Shown here one piece after another: positions 1 through 44,518 of a DNA stretch of 64,000 bases. The notes under the pieces were generated by a model. That model was not told where the DNA came from. It searched no databases and was given only the letters and a program-made list of their open reading frames with translations. Position 1 is the first letter of the stretch. Every line of letters begins with the position of its first letter. Position numbers and translations under genes: made by a program. Origin of the DNA: Eledone cirrhosa (Eukaryota); contig OZ024743.1 in the NCBI GenBank assembly GCA_964016885.1, forward strand, positions 251,410,001-251,474,000. The letters are read 5' to 3'.

Positions 1-689
1 AGAGAGAGAGAGAAAGAGATCTATATAAAAGATAGATGTATTTTGATAATTCCCTCCCTCCTATTTTAATTCTAATTAAAGAAATATATTTTTGCTCAAT
101 AACACACAACACACAATTCCGTGTATTATCCACTTACCGAAATGTTTCCGGCTTCTATTGGCAACATTCCTTCATGGTTTTCAACTTTGGTATTTATCCT
201 TATTTATAAGCTTGTAATGTCAGAAGACTGTGCCAAAAAGTTTCCTGCCCAGAACATGACAGCCACCATTGAAAACGGGAGTTCTAACATTACAACAAAA
301 ACACGATGTAATTTTTCTAAATATGATTACAAAGATATTCTTTTAGCTCTTTGCTGTCATGTGTTTTTTTTTTTAACATTGTAGTTGTTGTTGCTATATT
401 TATTCGGTCAGTATATATGTTTGTATATATATATATGTGTGTGTGTGTGTTTCCTATTGGACCATAACCCATGGTTTAAGATGAGAAACATTATCATCGT
501 CATCATTATCATCATCATTGCCACCAGCACCATCTTCCCCCTTATACGCACCATCATTATCACCACCATTTTTAAAGCCATAAATTATAGTGTATATAGT
601 GGTTTCAATATATTATCAGATTGCTCAACTAAGGATGTTACCAAATCCATCAAATATTCTTTTATTGATTGGTCTAGGTCTCTCTCTCC

Positions 690-3200: not shown

Positions 3201-3340
3201 TTCCTCTCTTTGGAAGAATTCTGCTGTACACAGGCCTGGAGAGGGAAGGGTTCCACCAGGCTTAAAATGCCCAAGATACACCGTATGTCAATACGGTGCC
3301 CCTAAGACTCTATCAGGAGTTACATACATATATATATATA

Positions 3341-3513
3341 CAGATAAAATTCCATTATAACGAATACGATTATAACAAATTTTGCAGTATAACGAAATTT
3401 TGTTCAATACCCGGCCACACGCTCGATGCATTAGGTCGATCTCTTTATAAAGAATTTTTCGTTATAACGAATTTTTTCTTATACCCCATGAATTTCGTTA
3501 TAATGGAATTTCA

Positions 3514-3516
<3 letters not shown>
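3341..3516. mobile_element. Tc1/mariner-pogo (Tigger-like) MITE
   Basis: Terminal inverted repeats CAGATAAAATTCCATTATAACGAA / TTCGTTATAATGGAATTTCACTG, internal TTATAACGAA repeats, flanked by TA. Confidence 0.8.
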
Positions 3517-3566
<50 letters not shown>

Positions 3567-3594
3567 TGGTTACACAACAGTTAGTTCACCATAC

Positions 3595-3632
3595 CGAGAA
3601 CAATTGTTTCACCTTAGCGGATCCTCAGCTCG
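3595..3632 (-). ncRNA. Minimal type-I hammerhead ribozyme motif (mirror copy)
   Basis: Minus strand reads CGAG-CTGAGGA-t-CC-gctaa-GG-t-GAAAC-AATT-GTT-CTCG, with a perfect 4-bp stem I. Confidence 0.6.
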
Positions 3633-3668
3633 AGCTGAGGATCCGCTAAAGTGAAACAATTGTTCTTG
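3631..3668 (+). ncRNA. Minimal type-I hammerhead ribozyme motif
   Basis: CGAG-CTGAGGA-tccgctaaagt-GAAAC-AATT-GTT-CTTG: stem I, CUGANGA core, GAAA, palindromic stem III. Stem II is weak. Confidence 0.55.
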
Positions 3669-3763
3669 GTATGGTGAACTAACTGTTTTGTAACCACTTC
3701 TACCTAACTCGTCCCATGGACTGAGTGCTCTACCACTACGGATATTAACTGCCAGTGTTCTAC

Positions 3764-3801
<38 letters not shown>

Positions 3802-4316
3802 CAGGAACATATGACCTAGTGGATAGGATGTCTGGATTCTATTGCTGGTTGCCTTTTGGATTGCAAACTACTTTAAAGAGTGCACTAAAGAGGCTGTTAT
3901 ATCTTTGACATAACTGAACAGTTTGTTATGCCCTTGAGAACACTGAAGTTGTTGTCATATCCTTGTTATATATCTGAAGTGGTTGTCATGTTCTTGACAT
4001 AGCTGAATAGTCCTTGCAGATTCAGCTTAACTAGTTTATATATGTTTACTGAAACAACTCAACAATTTGGTGGATATTTCAGTGATTTATATAATGAAGA
4101 GTATCCATCTGTAAATAATAACAAATAATAAACAACCCTGCTCTAAAGCTCTACCACATATAGAACATGAAAGAGCCCAAATTAGCTGAGCCATTCCAAC
4201 AAACCATACTTCAATCCTGTCTACAGTAAATTTATTTTGTGAAACTCCATTCTGCATACTCATTAATTTTCCCTTTTTGTTTTATCACAGAGTTAAGTAA
4301 ATCAACATTTTCATTC

Positions 4317-22740: not shown

Positions 22741-23106
22741 AGTTATAGGAATAACCAAAGAGTGCTTAGAAATACATTGTTTTATTAGCTAACAGTGTTT
22801 CATCCATACACCATGGCAGGAATCATCCAGTCTGGCCGACTGAACTCACTCGATATGCAAATTAGGCTGCTCAGCCGTTAATATGCATAAGGAAAGTATA
22901 TACTTTCAGACGTTCAACCATCTGGCAGGAAGGTATACGATGCTGACGATAGCTAATAAGCTTGAAACTAGTACATCGTTCCTGTGTCAGTGTTGAACAA
23001 AAAGGTGACGTGGTTGCCTAAACACTGTACGGCGTAATTCGGGCTGTTTATTTGTTTATAAACAAACAAACCGAGCATTATAATTAATGTTCGGTAAACT
23101 GATACG
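22741..23106 (+). mobile_element. Short PLE pLTR / retrozyme-like cassette between TA tracts
   Basis: About 365 bp of unique sequence bracketed by microsatellites, containing a canonical hammerhead at 22937-22979. Confidence 0.6.
22937..22979 (+). ncRNA. Minimal type-I hammerhead ribozyme
   Basis: ACGATG-CTGACGA-t-AGCT-aata-AGCT-t-GAAAC-TA-GTA-CATCGT: 6-bp stem I, intact core, 4-bp stem II, palindromic ACTAGT stem III, GUA cleavage triplet. Confidence 0.8.
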
Positions 23107-23934: not shown

Positions 23935-24159
23935 ATACAGTATTTACGTATCGAGAAAGAGAATGCCAAAGATGCTCGATATCCTCCCCTTTTTTTCTCT
24001 TTCTCGATACGTAAATACTGTATTACCGTGCTCCTTTTGTAGAGCATCTCACCTTATTTGCCATTATGTTGGAGAACCAGCCGTTACCCATGTCTCTCAA
24101 GTGTATCCCCTTACCCAGCAGAAAAACCTAACTTAAACTGCTTATAGACGCTTATAGAC

Positions 24160-24752
24160 GTAGAACCATTATCCAGTTCGAAGGCTCCCACTGGACCAGA
24201 ACCAACCGTCCTGATAACTGCGATGTCACGATGGGGTCCAGTGACTCAGCGCAAGCAACTGACCTGGTCGGGATATACCTCCTACATAAGCTTAGGGAAG
24301 AGATACCGGCCATACAAGGAGGTGTATATAGGGACGACGCCCTGTTTACCGTTAGGAACCATAGCCCCCGTAGGATAGAGAACCTTAACAAACATATACA
24401 CAGGTTCTTCAAGTCATACGGCCTATCCGTAACTATGGACCTCAACCACAGGGTTGTCAACTTCCTAGACGTGACCCTGGAGTTGAGTACGGGCTTATAC
24501 AAGCCATACCATAAGCCTGGAGAGTGCCTCTCTTATATTAATTATGCCTCCAACCACCCTAAGCAGACTCTCAACTCCATAGTCTATAGTATCTCACATA
24601 GAATCTCGAGGCTATCCGCCAATGAGGATATCTTCAACCAAGCGGCAGATTACTACAATAGCGCCATGATAAGCGCCGGCTTTAACCGAGGAATTTCCTA
24701 CATCCTTTACGCTAGCTCTAGAAACCACCCCCTCATAAAACAAACGTTATAG
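24160..24752 (+). pseudogene. PLE reverse transcriptase (C-terminal palm/thumb), disrupted
   Basis: YRDD catalytic motif, FLDV, SNHP. Upstream 11-bp duplication (GCTTATAGACG) and downstream stops. Confidence 0.85.
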
Positions 24753-25407
24753 TAAGCCATACCTATAATCAATCACGCGGCAACCTCGTTGAAGTCGGAT
24801 ATAATAGAAGAGATAACCGCACCAAAGATCACGACCCCGGCGACGGTGAACACTGTAGATTACTCGAACTATTCCCCTATTACAAAACCAACAAAGGCGA
24901 CGGCCTACTACTAACGCCTTCCAACCAACATCTTCGTGTACATAAACATGGAAGAGGTAGGAAGAGTGCACCCGAGCATAAAGTGAAAGGGGGCACCGAA
25001 CGGGCGACTGCGCATTAACACACATAAGAGCGGTCACCTAGATGGAACCACCCGTAGCAAAAGTACAAGGACACGTAATCGCCACCGTAACGTCCTATGG
25101 TTCCACCCCCACCCCCCTACTCTCGAAGTGTGACCTCCAACATACCCCGGATGTTCTTCGAAGCCTTAGAGAAGAACTTCCCGCCCAACCATAGGTATAG
25201 AAAAATTCTTAATAGGAACAATATAAAAATATCCTTCTCTACTACTCCTAACCTAGCAGACATCCTAACCTAGCAGACATCACCAAGACACAGCACCTCG
25301 ACACAGACGCACCTACACCTGACAATAACTATATCGGCCTTAACTCCCTGGCAGCATCCAATAGTGTTGGCAACGGCATCCGCAGACGCAACCAGCATAA
25401 CTGCGAA

Positions 25408-26001
25408 ATGACTGGGGAACATGCAGGACATGACGTGCAGAATAACAATCGCACCACCCCGCGTGCTGTGGGTTGTAATGGTGCTAACGACAGCTGCGGT
25501 AGCGTAGGTAGCAACGTAGGCAGCAACAATGATAGCCTTACCGTGGGAAACAGACGGAACCGCGACGGAAATAGCAACTGCCGCGACAGAGGACGCTGTC
25601 CCCTTAGAGGATACTGCTTGACTGATAGGGTTATATATAGATGCACTATTACTAGCCACAATAGCGTTAAACATTATATAGGGGCTACCTCCGGCCCGTT
25701 CAAAATTAGGTTTCGAACACATCTCCACTCTTTCACAAATAGAAAACTAAGGCACTCCACTTCGCTCGCGGACTACATCACATCACTAAAGGACTTAAAC
25801 ATCAGATTCTCCACGCACTGGGAGATTGTCGGCAGGGATGCACCGTACAACTTCAAGAGGAAATGCGATCTTTGCCTCATGGAGCTCTACCACATCATAA
25901 CTGCACCCCACGAGCTCATCAACAGCAGAGCTGAAACAGCGATAAGTTGTACACATCGCTTAAAAATATCCTTCTTCAGATGGGTTAAGGATGAGGAGTG
26001 A
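25408..26001 (+). pseudogene. PLE GIY-YIG endonuclease domain with Cys-rich motifs
   Basis: VIYRC...HYIGAT..FKIRF..H, CDLCL.E, LINSR.E, CTH. Separated from the RT by frameshifts, including a 17-bp duplication CCTAACCTAGCAGACAT. Confidence 0.85.
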
Positions 26002-40122: not shown

Positions 40123-43100
40123 TCAACAGCAAAGTCTCTCTGGGGGTTTACGAGTTCTCTTGGACCGTCTTCGATTGTCTGGTCCATACTCTGGAACGGG
40201 CAACAAGGTCTTGGGTCTGGTCTGTCTTGGAGTTAGTGGCACGATTTCCGAGATCTCCATCGGGTGATCTGTTGCAAATTCAAAAAATGTGTCTACTGCA
40301 TCAACAGGTTCATTGTCTTCCTCAGTAGTGTACCGCGGTTGCAGCTGTTCCCAGTGTCGTCTCCACACCGGGCCATGAGGTATGACCTTAACGTTGAAGC
40401 AGCGAGTACCCAATGACTTCTTAATGATTGCTGGTACCCATCGAGGATCTTTGTCTCGGCGAGGTCCGTAGTACAGTGCATACACAGGATCTCCAGCCTT
40501 GTACTGCCTGGTAACCTTAGCGACACCTGCCGAGTCCGGAGTCATCTGAGACTTATATGTTTCCTTAGACTGCTTGCCTTGAGCGATGTGTGCTGGCGAG
40601 GGCAGCAGACAATCAATCCTTGTCCGTATCTGCCGGTGATTCAAAAGTTCACTCGGAGAGAATCCACTGGATGTCGGTGTTCTCCGGTACTGCATCAAGA
40701 ACTCTTGAAGTGCTCGCTTCGGCGGAAGAGAAGTCTTCCTCAGAGCTTGTTTGAAGGTCTGCACCAAACGTTCCGCTGCTCCGTTAGTAGCTGGGTGGTA
40801 AGGTGCCCCTGTCAGGTGCGTGATCCCACGTTCTTTGCACCAGCTCTGGAACTCCTCAGAAATAAAAGTTGGTGCGTTATCGGTGACTAGCGTGTGAGGA
40901 AATACGAAGTGCGCAAAGTCTTCTTCAAGCAGATCTAAAGTGGCTCTGGAGGACGTGGATGACGTAGGATGAATGCATGGATACTTGGAATAAGCATCAG
41001 TGATCACCAACCAATTACTGCCCATGAAATTTATTGCGTGGTCCAGGTGTAAGCGGCTCCACGGCTTTTCAGGTAACATCCATGGGTGAACTGGAGACTT
41101 GGATGGCTGGTTTTGATGTTCACCACACGAATCACATTGTCGACTGGTTTTCTCTATAGCAGCATCGATACCAGGCCAATAAACAGCAGTTCTTGCCAAT
41201 TGTTTCATGCGCTCCATGCCAAAGTGTCCGAGATGCAGAAGATTGAGGATCTTTGGCTGTAAGCTATGTGGAATCACAACTCTCGATCCATGGATAAGGC
41301 ATCCGTGGCAGATACTGAGTGAATCCGATAACTTCCGGAACTTATTGACTTCGTCATTGATCTCAGTATTCTTTGGTGGCCAGCCTTCACGGACGTAGCG
41401 TATCACTCTAGATATCCCTGATCTTTCCCTGACTCTTGACGGAGGACGTTAGAATCGATAGGTTGGACTTGAAGACTGAGAGCTTTGATGGCGTACACCA
41501 TGTCCATGTCTTCACCATTTTCCTTCCTGTCAAAGTCGATGTCATTACCAAATGGCAAGCGACTGAGGGCATCTGCATTGCCATGATCCGCTGTTTTCCG
41601 ATATTCGATGGTGTAGTCAAACTGGTTCAGCCACAGGGCCCACTATGCTAGTCGGTTAGCAGCGAGAAGTGGCGTCCCTTTCCTCGGACTGAACAGTGAT
41701 GTCAGTGGCTTGTGGTCAGTTACGAGTATAAACTGATGTCCGTACAGATACTGATAGAACTTCTGCAAGCCAAATATAATGGCCAGGGCTTCCTTTTGAA
41801 TTTGGCCGTAGTTACGCTGTGCAGAAGTAAGAGTCTTGGACACATTGGATATTGGGCGCTCGCTTCCATCAGGATAGCGATGAAACAGGACTGCTCCAAT
41901 ACCAACGTTTGACGCGTCGCAAGCCAGTCCCAAAGTTTTGTTTGGATCGAAGTGTATCAGAACTCGATCCGATGAAAGCACATTTTTCAACTGATCGAAA
42001 GCTGACTGTTCTTCATCTCCCCACTTCCAAGCAGTCGTTTTTTTCGTAAGGCAATAGAGTGGCTCTGCCATGCTGGCCAGGTTTGGGATAAACTTTCCAT
42101 AGAACTGAACTGAACTGAACCCAGAAAAGACTTCAAGCTTGAGACGTTCGTTGGAGGTGGCATCTTTAAAACTGCTTCGACCTTGCATCCCTTCGCGATC
42201 CCTTCAGCCGACAAGGTGTGTCCAAGGTATTCCACACTGGGTAGTGCAAACTGGCACTTGTCACGGCGACATCTTAGTCCTTTGTCGCACAGACGTGTGA
42301 GCAGACACTTTAGGTTGTTCAGGTGATCGTTTGCATCTTTCCCACTGACGAGCATGTCGTCCTGGAAGACGGCCACACCAGGTAGATCTTGAGTCAGGTT
42401 TTCCATGATCTCCTGAAAGTAACCAGGTGCTGACTTGATTCCGAAAGGGAGTCGTTCCTGCAGGAGCACCCCACGGTGAGTGCTGAGTGCAAGCCTGCGT
42501 TGACTTTCTGGAGCCAGCTTGATCTGATTATAGGCATCAGCAAGATCAATCTTTGTGTATCCGAATCCACCTCCGAGCTTCTGCACCAGTTCCTCTGGGA
42601 GTGGCATTGGATGACGATGATCTGCAAGTTGGTCATTAATTCCCACAGAGTAGTCACCACAAATCCGTAGTTTGGGCTTCAGGTTGCCTGAAGTATGTGC
42701 TTTACGAATCGGTACCACTGGCGTTCCGTATTCGTTGAACTGTATTGGCTTCCAGATTCCTTTGGCGATGCCTTCTTCGTAACCTTTGGCCAGGTCATCA
42801 CGAAGAGCAAACGAGACCGGGCATGCCTTGTGAAAGACCGGTGTCGCGTCCGACTTGAACTTCACTTCCAGTTCGAAGTCATTAAGACATCCCAATTCTT
42901 GCTTGAAGAGATCTGGGAATTCATCACACATGTGACAATCTCGTTGCATGGAAATATAGGGCTCATTTGAGGTCTTTGGATGCATCACTTCTGCACCCTC
43001 ACTCTTGGCCTGGCTGTCTATGCTTTTCAATCCTAGAGCATTGTCCACGGAAATTCCCAGAGTCTGGATAGCGTTTCGTCCCAGCAAATTAAGATCAGGG

Positions 43101-43558
43101 ATCTTGGTGACGATGTAGGGTATTGAATTCCGTTTACCAGTCGTTGGATCCTTGGTTTGGCCCATGAAAGTTCCCAGAACGGGCAGGTCGTGCTTGCTGG
43201 CAGATTCAAACCGATGTTTGACATCTTGCAGCTTCGGTTTTCCTAATTGTTTCCAAACTGACAAGGAAACAAAATTGCCTGTAGTAGCTGTGTCCAATTC
43301 CATTGTGAAAAGTCTGTTCTGGATTGTTATTAGCACATTCAAACTATGAGTATCGTGGGAAACTTCACCAAGGATCGCCTTGACTAGCTCAGCTTTCGTG
43401 ATTCTTTTCACGTAATTCTGTGAGCGATGATTACGTTGCTGATGTTGTTTCTTTCTACACACCGCTTGCAAATGTCCCTTTTTGTCACAAAAATGACATT
43501 TGGCTTCTTTGAAGGAGCAGTCTGTCGCTTTGTGGGCCTTTCCACATCGGTAGCACAT
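40123..43558 (-). pseudogene. pol: Gypsy pol (nucleocapsid knuckles, protease, RT, RNase H, integrase), frameshifted
   Basis: CYRCGKAH..C and CHFCDKKGH..C knuckles, ELDTA protease, RICGDY / IDLADAY / LPFG / FQDD RT, ACDASNVG / TDHKPL RNase H, H..H..C..C plus DAYSK / TDNAP / NGAAER integrase. Stops and frameshifts, including a GAACT duplication near 42105. Confidence 0.92.
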
Positions 43559-44385
43559 CTCCTGGTCTGTGGAATAGGACTGCTGATAGTTTTTCGAGGA
43601 CCCTTGTTCTTGTTCTGCTGGACCTTGTAGACTTGCTTGGTTTTGGAACCGTAAACAGTTTCCTTGGCAACCTTTGCTGCGTCTTCGGTCCCGATGGCAA
43701 CTTGGACAGCACGGGCGAAATCTAGTTCTGTATCCTTGATCTTGAAAATAGCGTTCAACACAGCTTCATTATTGACAGAACATATAAATCTCTGTCTTAG
43801 AGCTTCATCTTGTGGATTTGTGATCGAAGGAAAATCACAGGTAGCTGCATCCTGACGTATACGTGCTGCCAGGTCCTGGAGAGTTTCGCCTGGCTTCCGT
43901 TGCATGTCACTCCAGAACTTGAAACGTTCTCTCACAATGAAAAGTTTTGGGTCGAACTGTTCTTTCATGAAGTCAACAATTTCGTCCATTGTCAACTTGT
44001 TGATATTCTTAGGCGGATTTTGTTGAGCAGCCAGATTTACAAGTTGTTTGTAGATAGCAGCCGTCTGATTAGTCAGGAACACTTGTGCCATGCGTTGCTC
44101 GGGTACAGCGTTAGCAGCCACAAACGTGCAGAATCTTGACCAGTAATCAGGCCATAGTTCTGTTGTTGAATCAAAAGCAGCAAATGGTGGGATGAATGCT
44201 GTTGGTGTCGAAGCAACTGGCGACGCCAATAAACTCTGTTGTTCAGAATCTCGAGCACCAAACAGTTTTATCAGGGTGTCCATATCTTTTTTGTGTTGTT
44301 GTATTTGTTGTTCCTGTTGTTGCATTTGCTGTTCCATCTGTTCTCTAAACAACTTTATTAGCTCTGCTGTTTGTTGTTCCGCTAT
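43559..44385 (-). pseudogene. gag: Gypsy gag (capsid)
   Basis: FDSTTELWPDYWSRF...ERFKF..MQRKPGET..DLAARIR..AATCDF...LRQRFIC. Probable start mutated to ATA at 44385. Frameshift near 43560. Confidence 0.85.
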
Positions 44386-44408
44386 GTTTTTGTGATAAAC
44401 AATTTCCC

Positions 44409-44518
44409 GGCAATGTCGGTAAATCCTATCGGCAATGTAGGTAAATCCTATAGGCAATGTAGGTAAATCCTATCGGAAATGTAGGTAAATCCTATCGGCA
44501 ATGTAGGTAAATCCTATC
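44409..44518. repeat. Five tandem 22-bp repeats adjoining the PBS
   Basis: GGCAATGTAGGTAAATCCTATC x5 with single-base variants. Confidence 0.95.

What the first reader, a model, noticed from the sequence alone, without database searches (positions are those of the whole stretch)
3564..3768. 136-bp loopless palindrome encoding a hammerhead ribozyme on each strand
Seen: 68-bp arms with 3 mismatches meet at CTC|GAG with no spacer. The central CGAG is the 5' strand of stem I for a minimal type-I hammerhead (CUGAGGA...GAAAC-AAUU-GUU) on the plus strand (3631-3668) and for its mirror on the minus strand (3595-3632). A 70-bp tail with a 15-nt direct repeat (AGTGYTCTACCACTA) follows, and the unit sits in (TA)n. 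Known: minimal hammerheads with palindromic stem III occur in PLE pLTRs and non-LTR retrozymes and can cleave as dimers. Inference: transcription from either direction gives an RNA that either folds into a long dsRNA hairpin (an ADAR/Dicer substrate, ribozyme off) or self-cleaves. This could be a strand-symmetric ribozyme switch or a non-autonomous palindromic retroelement.
Basis: partly seen in the sequence, partly recalled or inferred. Interest (0 to 1): 0.75.

Follow-up and report, generated by a model that had tools for sequence, protein, structure and literature searches.

The report
Head-to-head Penelope retrotransposon ends
This palindrome is two short, back-to-back copies of the hammerhead-bearing end of a very common Penelope-like jumping gene, likely made when one capped RNA was copied from two fixed start points at once; it is a known kind of insertion debris, and its ribozymes are predicted to be shut off.

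Summary
The palindrome, both hammerhead motifs and the (TA)n flanks are real. It is neither a ribozyme switch nor an element of its own. It is one insertion of a Hydra-clade Penelope-like retrotransposon (full-length copy L065; 5,207 exact hits of one 26-mer): two short copies of the pseudo-LTR joined head to head. The joint varies between insertions; 2 loci genome-wide have this exact 30-nt centre. In the first 100 hits (81 insertions), 43 are head-to-head and 38 single. Arms end at two fixed sites, one of each in 36 of 43 pairs; in 13 of these 36 each arm carries sequence the other lacks, which simple fold-back cannot give. Joints peak 8 nt before the ribozyme core, and arms ending there are preceded by a non-templated G (23 of 28, against 10 of 44 elsewhere), a likely cap signature. 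Best model (inferred): both ends of the cut (TA)n prime on the same capped RNA. Few copies start at the predicted ribozyme cut, and both cores are predicted to be locked in the hairpin. The architecture is published, and this scan reported it and twin priming before on other DNA of this genome; the cap-G evidence was not in the notes I saw.

The parts
3517..3564 (.). (TA)24 left flank, the insertion target
   Evidence: copies read mostly end in (TA)n; Hydra clade prefers (TA)n
3564..3632 (-). Left arm: pseudo-LTR positions +5 to +73 (+1 = A of ATTACGAG, likely RNA start); ends at site A; identical to the parent copy L065 over this span
3631..3768 (+). Right arm: pseudo-LTR positions +5 to +141/142; ends at site C; 6 differences from L065 in 137 nt, including all three arm mismatches
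3631..3632 (.). Head-to-head joint: 2-nt CG overlap; both arms lack the first four bases of the likely RNA
3631..3668 (+). Minimal type-I hammerhead motif (core 3635-3641 and 3653-3656, predicted cut after 3664); stem II weakened by G>A at 3650, stem I with a G-U pair from C>T at 3667
   Evidence: pattern matches Hydra-clade motifs
3595..3632 (-). Mirror hammerhead motif with the family's majority sequence (predicted cut after 3599); 4-bp stem I only
3655..3664 (.). Self-complementary stem III region AACAATTGTT, predicted able to pair two ribozymes (-8.2 kcal/mol)
3700..3768 (+). One-sided tail: the stretch between the two end sites A and C
   Evidence: tail = stretch between two RT start sites in PMC11167929
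3707..3726 (+). Bulged hairpin (ACTC-GTCC-CAT-GGAC-T-GAGT) starting 5 nt after site A
   Evidence: present in MFE and centroid; z of the 74-nt stretch only -0.56
3724..3768 (+). 15-nt direct repeat (3724-3738, 3754-3768); the second copy is end site C; the first copy is not used as an end (0 of 100 arms)
3767..3800 (.). (TA)17 right flank

Best explanation
The unit is one insertion of a Hydra-clade Penelope-like retrotransposon, reduced to two short copies of its hammerhead-bearing pseudo-LTR joined head to head inside (TA)n, likely made when both ends of the cut target primed reverse transcription on the same capped RNA at two fixed internal sites. Shown: family identity, variable joints, two fixed outer ends, shared variants between arms, a peak of joints at +1 with a non-templated G. 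Inferred: (1) the RNA starts at +1, 8 nt before the CUGAGGA core, and is capped; (2) the GIY-YIG nuclease cuts both strands of (TA)n; (3) one DNA end primes at site A (+73/76), the other at site C (+141); (4) both cDNAs run towards the RNA start, the second displacing the first; (5) their 3' ends are trimmed or extended and joined through 0-4 nt of pairing, here CG at +5/+6. The template was uncut, since the ribozyme core is copied. In this copy the ribozymes are predicted inert: distal stem I is lost, the plus copy has a broken stem II, and both cores would pair in a 68-bp duplex. Odds: identity 0.97; two-site priming from both ends as the main route 0.7; capped start at +1 0.75.
For: Family: 1,390 candidates, the 30 loci read are dispersed copies in simple-repeat flanks; 214 hits of the upstream-extended motif, whose 30 loci mostly run on into a 3' UTR and an RT + GIY-YIG frame; L065 has pLTR-ORF-pLTR, about 2.56 kb per unit; RVT_1 weak hit E = 0.011; DKT, RWR, YRDD, CxCx5C, CxxC, CxH read in the translations as defined for Hydra. 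Ends: of 100 arms 44 end at +73..77 and 52 at +138..141 (2 of the latter run on into the body), 0 at the first repeat copy. Pairs: 36 A/C, 3 C/C, 0 A/A, 4 other of 43; solos 19 C, 17 A, 2 other of 38; 36 of 39 against 50%, p = 2e-8; 100 of 122 short pairs A/C in all loci held. Crossed arms in 13 of 36 (12 independent, 9 by 6 nt or more); in L178 the C arm stops at +77 where the A arm begins. Same template: arms share 48 non-majority bases against 6.3 +/- 2.8 in 1,000 shuffles, max 18 (112 pairs). RNA start: joints at +1 259, at -1 69, at +2 105; G before +1 in 23 of 28 arm ends with inserted bases against 10 of 44 elsewhere, Fisher p = 8e-7, where the parent has C. Precedent: an anole PLE cleaves and extends both strands, starts at two internal sites that bound the tail, and uses uncut RNA; untemplated 5' G is read as cap copying in L1.
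Against: This copy itself (+5/+5, nested ends) fits fold-back equally well. 20 of 36 A/C pairs are nested and 3 level, so fold-back is excluded only for 13. L018 mirrors about 90 nt of flanking DNA and L163 about 12 nt, which needs DNA-templated fold-back or later duplication. Part of the +1 peak is AT microhomology: among the first 100 hits the -1 base is G 47, T 33, A 20 (hand count), and the crude control at -1 has G in 25 of 69 (hand count), so the raw G excess is weak; of 18 G cases read, 13 are non-templated, 3 templated by the partner arm, 2 unclear. The loci for the G test were pooled from searches of unequal bias, and a recurring CGG insert may not be independent. Subfamily sites are discordant in some pairs (+66: both arms 10, one arm 4; +13: 6 and 4). 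28 of 100 arms reach beyond -150 and 26 end between -150 and -1, so many arms come from the 3' pseudo-LTR by plain truncation. Shared variants could also come from arm-to-arm conversion.
Confidence: 0.7

Rival explanations
1. Fold-back: one cDNA primed at site C reaches the RNA start, snaps back on itself through short self-pairing (here TCGA) and copies itself, and the second arm is resolved at site A. A published variant has self-priming on an antisense template.
For: Fits this copy and the 23 of 36 nested or level A/C pairs; explains shared variants and the mirrored flank of L018; proposed for head-to-head PLE repeats in PMC3846280 (passages).
Against: Cannot give the 13 of 36 crossed pairs, the C arm that stops where the A arm starts (L178), or joints where both arms reach +1 with added bases between them (7 such joints listed). 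Solo copies end at site A as often as at C (17 and 19 of 38), so A behaves as a start site. The G before +1 points to a sense, capped template, not an antisense one.
Confidence: 0.15
2. Two RNA molecules, or two pseudo-LTRs of one tandem transcript, held together (possibly through the palindromic stem III), are each copied from one DNA end.
For: Stem III can form a 10-bp duplex, -8.2 kcal/mol; minimal PLE hammerheads are thought to act as dimers; needs no strand displacement; some pairs are discordant at subfamily sites; partial tandems exist (L065).
Against: Arms share variants far above random pairing (48 against 6.3), which excludes random RNAs but not two RNAs of one source locus; does not by itself explain one A end with one C end, nor L178.
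Confidence: 0.12
3. One reading: a selected strand-symmetric ribozyme switch, or a palindromic non-autonomous retroelement that multiplies as such.
For: 238 loci have a short head-to-head joint; 9 of 110 joints are +5/+5 like this one; a read-through RNA would fold with the cores paired.
Against: Exact 30-nt centre in 2 loci including this one; none of the 50 joints listed has this centre (read by eye); 8 of the 9 +5/+5 joints were fetched for likeness to the window, 1 of 43 in the unbiased sample; those copies differ in ends and subfamily bases, so they formed separately; two of this copy's three mismatches fall in the plus ribozyme and its fold is predicted unstable (+3.5 to +6.0 kcal/mol).
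Confidence: 0.03

Closest known systems
Hydra clade of C-terminal EN+ Penelope-like elements, nearest Hydra-1_Obim (PMC8557442; passages, section 11, supplement hits and supplement part 2 read)
   Same: Under 3 kb, single ORF with DKT, RW(K/R), CxCx5C, CxxC, CxH and C-terminal GIY-YIG; (TA)n target; hammerhead of the form CUGANGA-U...U-GAAAC with palindromic stem III and often U at the cut site; protein stretches align by eye with Hydra-1_Obim.
   Different: A different family: two 12-nt words of this hammerhead have 0 hits in the supplement; stem II is 2 bp against 3-7 bp in the listed Hydra motifs; a clear pseudo-LTR is seen here.
Typical EN+ PLE insertion unit: inverted 5'-truncated pLTR plus one-sided tail (PMC8557442 Fig. 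2 legend; PMC3846280 passages; PMC2377424 passages)
   Same: Head-to-head inverted copy, palindromic joint, tail on one side only.
   Different: Both halves are truncated to under 140 nt, with no ORF; the tail is 65-68 nt rather than 30-40; the data favour two-end priming on a capped sense RNA over the antisense self-priming proposed in PMC3846280.
Anolis Poseidon PLE in vitro (PMC11167929; parts 1-2 of 4 read)
   Same: Two internal start sites bounding the tail; both strands cut and extended; uncut RNA is the template; AT-rich target.
   Different: Different clade; the parts read do not explain inverted copies; here the genomic copies link one start site to each DNA end.
Non-LTR retrozymes (10.64898/2026.07.22.740005, part 1 of 5 read)
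   Same: ORF-less, type-I hammerhead, related to PLE pLTRs.
   Different: Retrozymes are head-to-tail tandem units; this is head-to-head, with variable joints and a coding parent whose end it matches at 131 of 137 nt.
L1 twin priming (recalled, not read here)
   Same: Both target ends prime on one RNA; joint with short microhomology.
   Different: L1 gives an inversion without long duplication and primes the second strand at variable sites; here both sites are fixed and the arms overlap.

Membership tests
Hydra-clade PLE | Single ORF with RT and C-terminal GIY-YIG, element under 3 kb | tested here: met
   L065/L064/L033: YRDD RT followed by VIYEAVV..YVGM nuclease, unit about 2.56 kb; copies read carry stops or shifts; Pfam RVT_1 only E = 0.011, below cut-off, no GIY-YIG Pfam hit
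Hydra-clade PLE | DKT motif, RWK motif, CxCx5C linker, CxxC and CxH near the C end | tested here: met
   SDKT, RWR (K>R), CSCRKPEAC, CGLC, CPH read; definition
Hydra-clade PLE | Insertion into (TA)n | tested here: met
Hydra-clade PLE | Hammerhead in the pseudo-LTR | tested here: met
   both pseudo-LTRs of L065; same layout as listed Hydra motifs
Hydra-clade PLE | Placement inside the clade on an RT tree | not tested
   reference proteins were seen only in a paper supplement; compared by eye
Minimal type-I hammerhead of PLEs | Core CUGANGA and GAAA, palindromic stem III, short stem I | tested here: met
   in 213 arms the core varies mainly at the free position N7 (CTGAGGA 151, CTGAAGA 39, regex-biased)
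Minimal type-I hammerhead of PLEs | G10.1-C11.1 pair and a stable stem II | tested here: not met
U...U flanks are common in Hydra motifs
Minimal type-I hammerhead of PLEs | Self-cleavage, as monomer, dimer or with protein | not testable with these tools
   indirect: joints at the predicted cut 41 against 19 at a control site; at least 7 of 20 read have CT/CTCG overlap with the partner arm; 0 of 100 sampled arms start at +39
Non-LTR retrozyme | Head-to-tail tandem repeats each with a hammerhead | tested here: not met
   head-to-head or single copies; no such tandem at the locus
Palindromic non-autonomous element or MITE | Copies share a fixed internal structure and centre | tested here: not met

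The most novel reading that the evidence does not exclude
The inverted pseudo-LTR that is typical of Penelope elements is the product of double priming: a dimeric enzyme cuts both strands of (TA)n, starts one cDNA at each of two fixed sites on one capped sense RNA and copies the RNA's front end twice, down to the cap. Thousands of genomic joints then record the transcription start at single-base resolution, 8 nt before the hammerhead core, where stem I lacks its distal CC, so the ribozyme next to the cap is built to stay weak while the downstream, read-through copy has the full stem.
Probability: 0.5. Interest if true: 0.6.

Novelty: new member of a known kind. Interest (0 to 1): 0.3.

Why it matters
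The locus itself is ordinary retrotransposon debris. The family-level pattern bears on an open question stated in PMC8557442 and PMC11167929: how Penelope elements make their inverted and tailed insertions. It gives concrete predictions (start at +1, capped sense template, one start site per DNA end, uncut RNA) that the existing anole in vitro system can test, and it argues against antisense self-priming as the main route. As a by-product, an estimated two thousand or more such perfect hairpins are potential double-stranded RNA substrates for editing or silencing if transcribed, which was not tested.

Tried and rejected
Rfam scan: no hammerhead family among 50 matches; the miRNA-precursor hits are generic hairpin matches below gathering scores and were rejected. 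Free folding of the isolated arms gives no hammerhead fold and no excess stability (z -0.4 to +0.9). Pfam on L033 and PDB sequence search gave nothing. RNA evidence: no RNA holder listed; three runs of unknown kind, one sample, contigs only, were laid on 3300-4000 and say nothing on expression, start or editing. A count of joints of the window's exact length was not obtained (one search gave no result); the exact-centre count stands in. A second hairpin after site C, as proposed in earlier notes, could be looked at in one run-through copy only (L065): a 4-bp hairpin about 18 nt downstream inside a weak larger stem, z = 0.09, inconclusive. One fold (L183:1-60) was off target and is ignored. My first x-drop alignment stopped falsely at a variable stretch near -147; replaced by chained BLAST. 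Naiad clade rejected: nuclease is C-terminal and a hammerhead is present. In vivo cleavage as the cause of the joint rejected: the joints lie 5' of the core, not at the cut site. Searches for prior print: 'Penelope-like + hammerhead + inverted + palindromic' 1 unrelated paper; 'Penelope + twin priming + inverted + retrotransposon' 2 papers, not on PLE mechanism by title and abstract, not opened; 'Penelope + internal promoter + pLTR + transcription start'. The library lacks most subscription papers. Supplementary figures of PMC11167929 (S1, S2) and figures S7-S8 of PMC8557442 were not seen in full and may bear on the start-site and clade claims.

Full report
1. Observation. The sequence is as described. 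Arms 3564-3631 and 3632-3699 are 68 bp, abut with no spacer and differ at three pairs; the hairpin folds at -110.8 kcal/mol, z = -22. A CTGANGA...GAAAC motif lies on each strand, the 15-nt repeat is at 3724 and 3754, and (TA)24 and (TA)17 flank the unit. Rfam gave no hammerhead match among 50 hits at E <= 10, and the isolated arms do not fold freely into a hammerhead.

2. It is the end of a coding retrotransposon. A DNA search of the own genome gave 1,390 candidates, 40 scored; the 30 loci read are dispersed copies in simple-repeat flanks with differing centres. [quoted passage not shown] Locus L065 holds pseudo-LTR, ORF (with stops) and pseudo-LTR, about 2.56 kb per unit. The protein has DKT, RWR, CxCx5C, CxxC and CxH, the marks of the Hydra clade in PMC8557442 (section 11), which also inserts in (TA)n. 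Published Hydra hammerheads have the same layout, CUGANGA-U...U-GAAAC with palindromic stem III and often U at the cut (supplement part 2). The family is not Hydra-1_Obim itself. Pfam support is weak (RVT_1, E = 0.011) and no tree was built. The window's right arm matches L065 at 131 of 137 nt and its left arm fully. Exact words of the pseudo-LTR have 3,451 and 5,207 hits; at 81 insertions per 100 hits that is about 4,000 insertions or more (estimate). Earlier notes call the genome an octopus; I did not test that.

3. The centre is not fixed. Numbering is from +1 = A of ATTACGAG; the core is +9..+15, the predicted cut follows +38. 238 loci have a short head-to-head joint; none of the 50 listed has the window's centre (by eye), and the exact 30-nt centre occurs at 2 loci including this one. 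In an unbiased sample, the first 100 exact hits of a 26-mer on contig C1, there are 81 insertions: 43 head-to-head and 38 single; 1 of the 43 has the +5/+5 joint. Arms run from under 30 nt to over 2 kb. So the palindrome is a product of insertion, made afresh each time, as known for these elements (PMC8557442 passages; PMC3846280 passages; PMC2377424 passages).

4. Outer ends. 44 of 100 arms end at +73..77 (site A), 52 at +138..141 (site C; two of them run on into the body), 4 elsewhere, none at the first copy of the 15-nt repeat. Single copies use both (17 A, 19 C, 2 other). Pairs have one of each in 36 of 43 (3 C/C, 0 A/A, 4 other; 36 of 39 against one half, p = 2e-8); in all loci held, 100 of 122. 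The window copy is an A/C pair. In the anole PLE, reverse transcription starts at two internal sites that bound the tail, both DNA strands are cut and extended, and uncut RNA is the main template (PMC11167929, parts 1-2).

5. Fold-back or two primers. A cDNA that folds back yields a second arm nested in the first. 20 of 36 A/C pairs are nested, 3 level, and 13 crossed: the arm without the tail reaches further 5'. Two of the 13 are duplicates of one insertion; 9 cross by 6 nt or more; in L178 the C arm stops at +77, where the A arm begins. Arms share 48 non-majority bases in 112 pairs against 6.3 +/- 2.8 in shuffled pairs, so both usually copy one template or one source; some subfamily sites are discordant. 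Against: L018 mirrors about 90 nt of flank, which needs a DNA-templated step, and the window copy cannot by itself tell the routes apart.

6. The joints mark the likely RNA start. 25 of 100 arms start at +1..+10, against 6 at -10..-1 and 5 at +11..+20. Genome-wide, patterns that require two non-parent bases before a 20-mer give 259 hits at +1, 69 at -1 and 105 at +2. The parent has C at -1. Among joints with inserted bases, arms that start at +1 are preceded by G in 23 of 28 cases, other arms in 10 of 44 (p = 8e-7); seven listed joints have both arms at +1 with added bases between. An untemplated 5' G is read as cap copying in L1 (PMC9341517 passages), and CC-A-TT resembles an initiator (recalled). 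Caveats: a third of the +1 hits are AT overlaps with (TA)n; the raw G share (47 of 100) is little above a crude control (25 of 69; hand counts); of 18 G cases read, 13 are non-templated, 3 templated, 2 unclear; the loci were pooled from searches of unequal bias. Many arms (54 of 100's bins upstream of +1) come from the 3' pseudo-LTR by ordinary truncation.

7. The ribozyme. The family motif looks constrained (variation mainly at the free N7 position), but stem II is only 2 bp and lacks the G10.1-C11.1 pair stressed in PMC4209133 (parts 1-2), where such motifs cut weakly and only as dimers. The parent's stem I is predicted to be 4 bp + 2x2 loop + 4 bp when read from upstream; imposed hammerhead folds score -6.9 or -5.5 kcal/mol from -2, -1.7 or -0.3 from +1, -1.0 or +0.4 for the window's minus arm and +6.0 or +3.5 for its plus arm, for the two readings of stem II, all above the alternative folds. 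In the whole unit each core is paired with probability about 1. Copies starting at the predicted cut are few: 41 hits against 19 at a control site, several explained by overlap with the partner arm, and 0 of 100 in the sample. Cleavage was not testable here.

8. Model. Shown: identity, two outer ends, their pairing, crossed arms, shared variants, the +1 peak with G. Inferred: a capped RNA starts at +1; both strands of (TA)n are cut; one end primes at A, the other at C; both cDNAs run to the RNA start, the second displacing the first; their 3' ends join through short pairing, here CG after loss of four bases each. Rivals: fold-back (0.15), two RNAs of one source (0.12), a selected switch or palindromic element (0.03).

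9. Novelty. The architecture is published, and this scan has already reported Hydra-clade head-to-head ends, two fixed ends, twin priming and a pile-up at the RNA start on other DNA of this genome (unchecked notes, used as leads and retested here). The cap-G signature did not appear in the notes shown nor in my searches, which cover an incomplete library. Verdict: new member of a known kind; interest 0.3; the mechanistic reading would deserve 0.6 if confirmed.

Noticed in passing
window 22937-22979 (+), with 24132-24752 and 25252-26001 (+): A second, well-formed Hydra-type hammerhead (6-bp stem I, 4-bp stem II, palindromic stem III; it is the MFE fold) and downstream RT and GIY-YIG-like frames of another Penelope-like family.
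   Followed up: partly
window 3339-3518: A 176-bp element with about 25-bp terminal inverted repeats (CAG...CTG) between TA dinucleotides, likely a Tc1/mariner-type MITE; its right end abuts the (TA)n that holds the palindrome; repetitive in the runs laid.
   Followed up: partly
window 40123-44469 (-): LTR-retrotransposon frames in gag-RT-integrase order, broken into several frames (RVT_1 E = 2e-20, rve E = 5e-14).
   Followed up: partly
L018 / L061:4766-5234: A C/C palindrome of this family in which about 90 nt of flanking DNA is also mirrored, suggesting a minor DNA-templated fold-back route.
   Followed up: partly
L200 and L237: Short head-to-tail units that include the first 150 nt of the 5' body (unit +35..+292 in L200), so a further start or jump site near +290-310 may exist; these resemble retrozyme-like tandems.
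   Followed up: no
L055 oriented 1600-1717; L035, L040, L054 flanks: Unrelated spacerless palindromes of 120-750 bp lie in the flanks of several loci; the one in L055 looks like a truncated hammerhead of another family.
   Followed up: no
L065:1309-1833 (+): A 175-aa cysteine-rich frame that looks like an interleukin-17-family domain (recalled resemblance, not tested).
   Followed up: no
sample arms starting at +35 (L140, L151, L188, L200): Five of 100 arms start at +35, beside the centre of the stem III palindrome, 4 nt before the predicted cut; unexplained.
   Followed up: no
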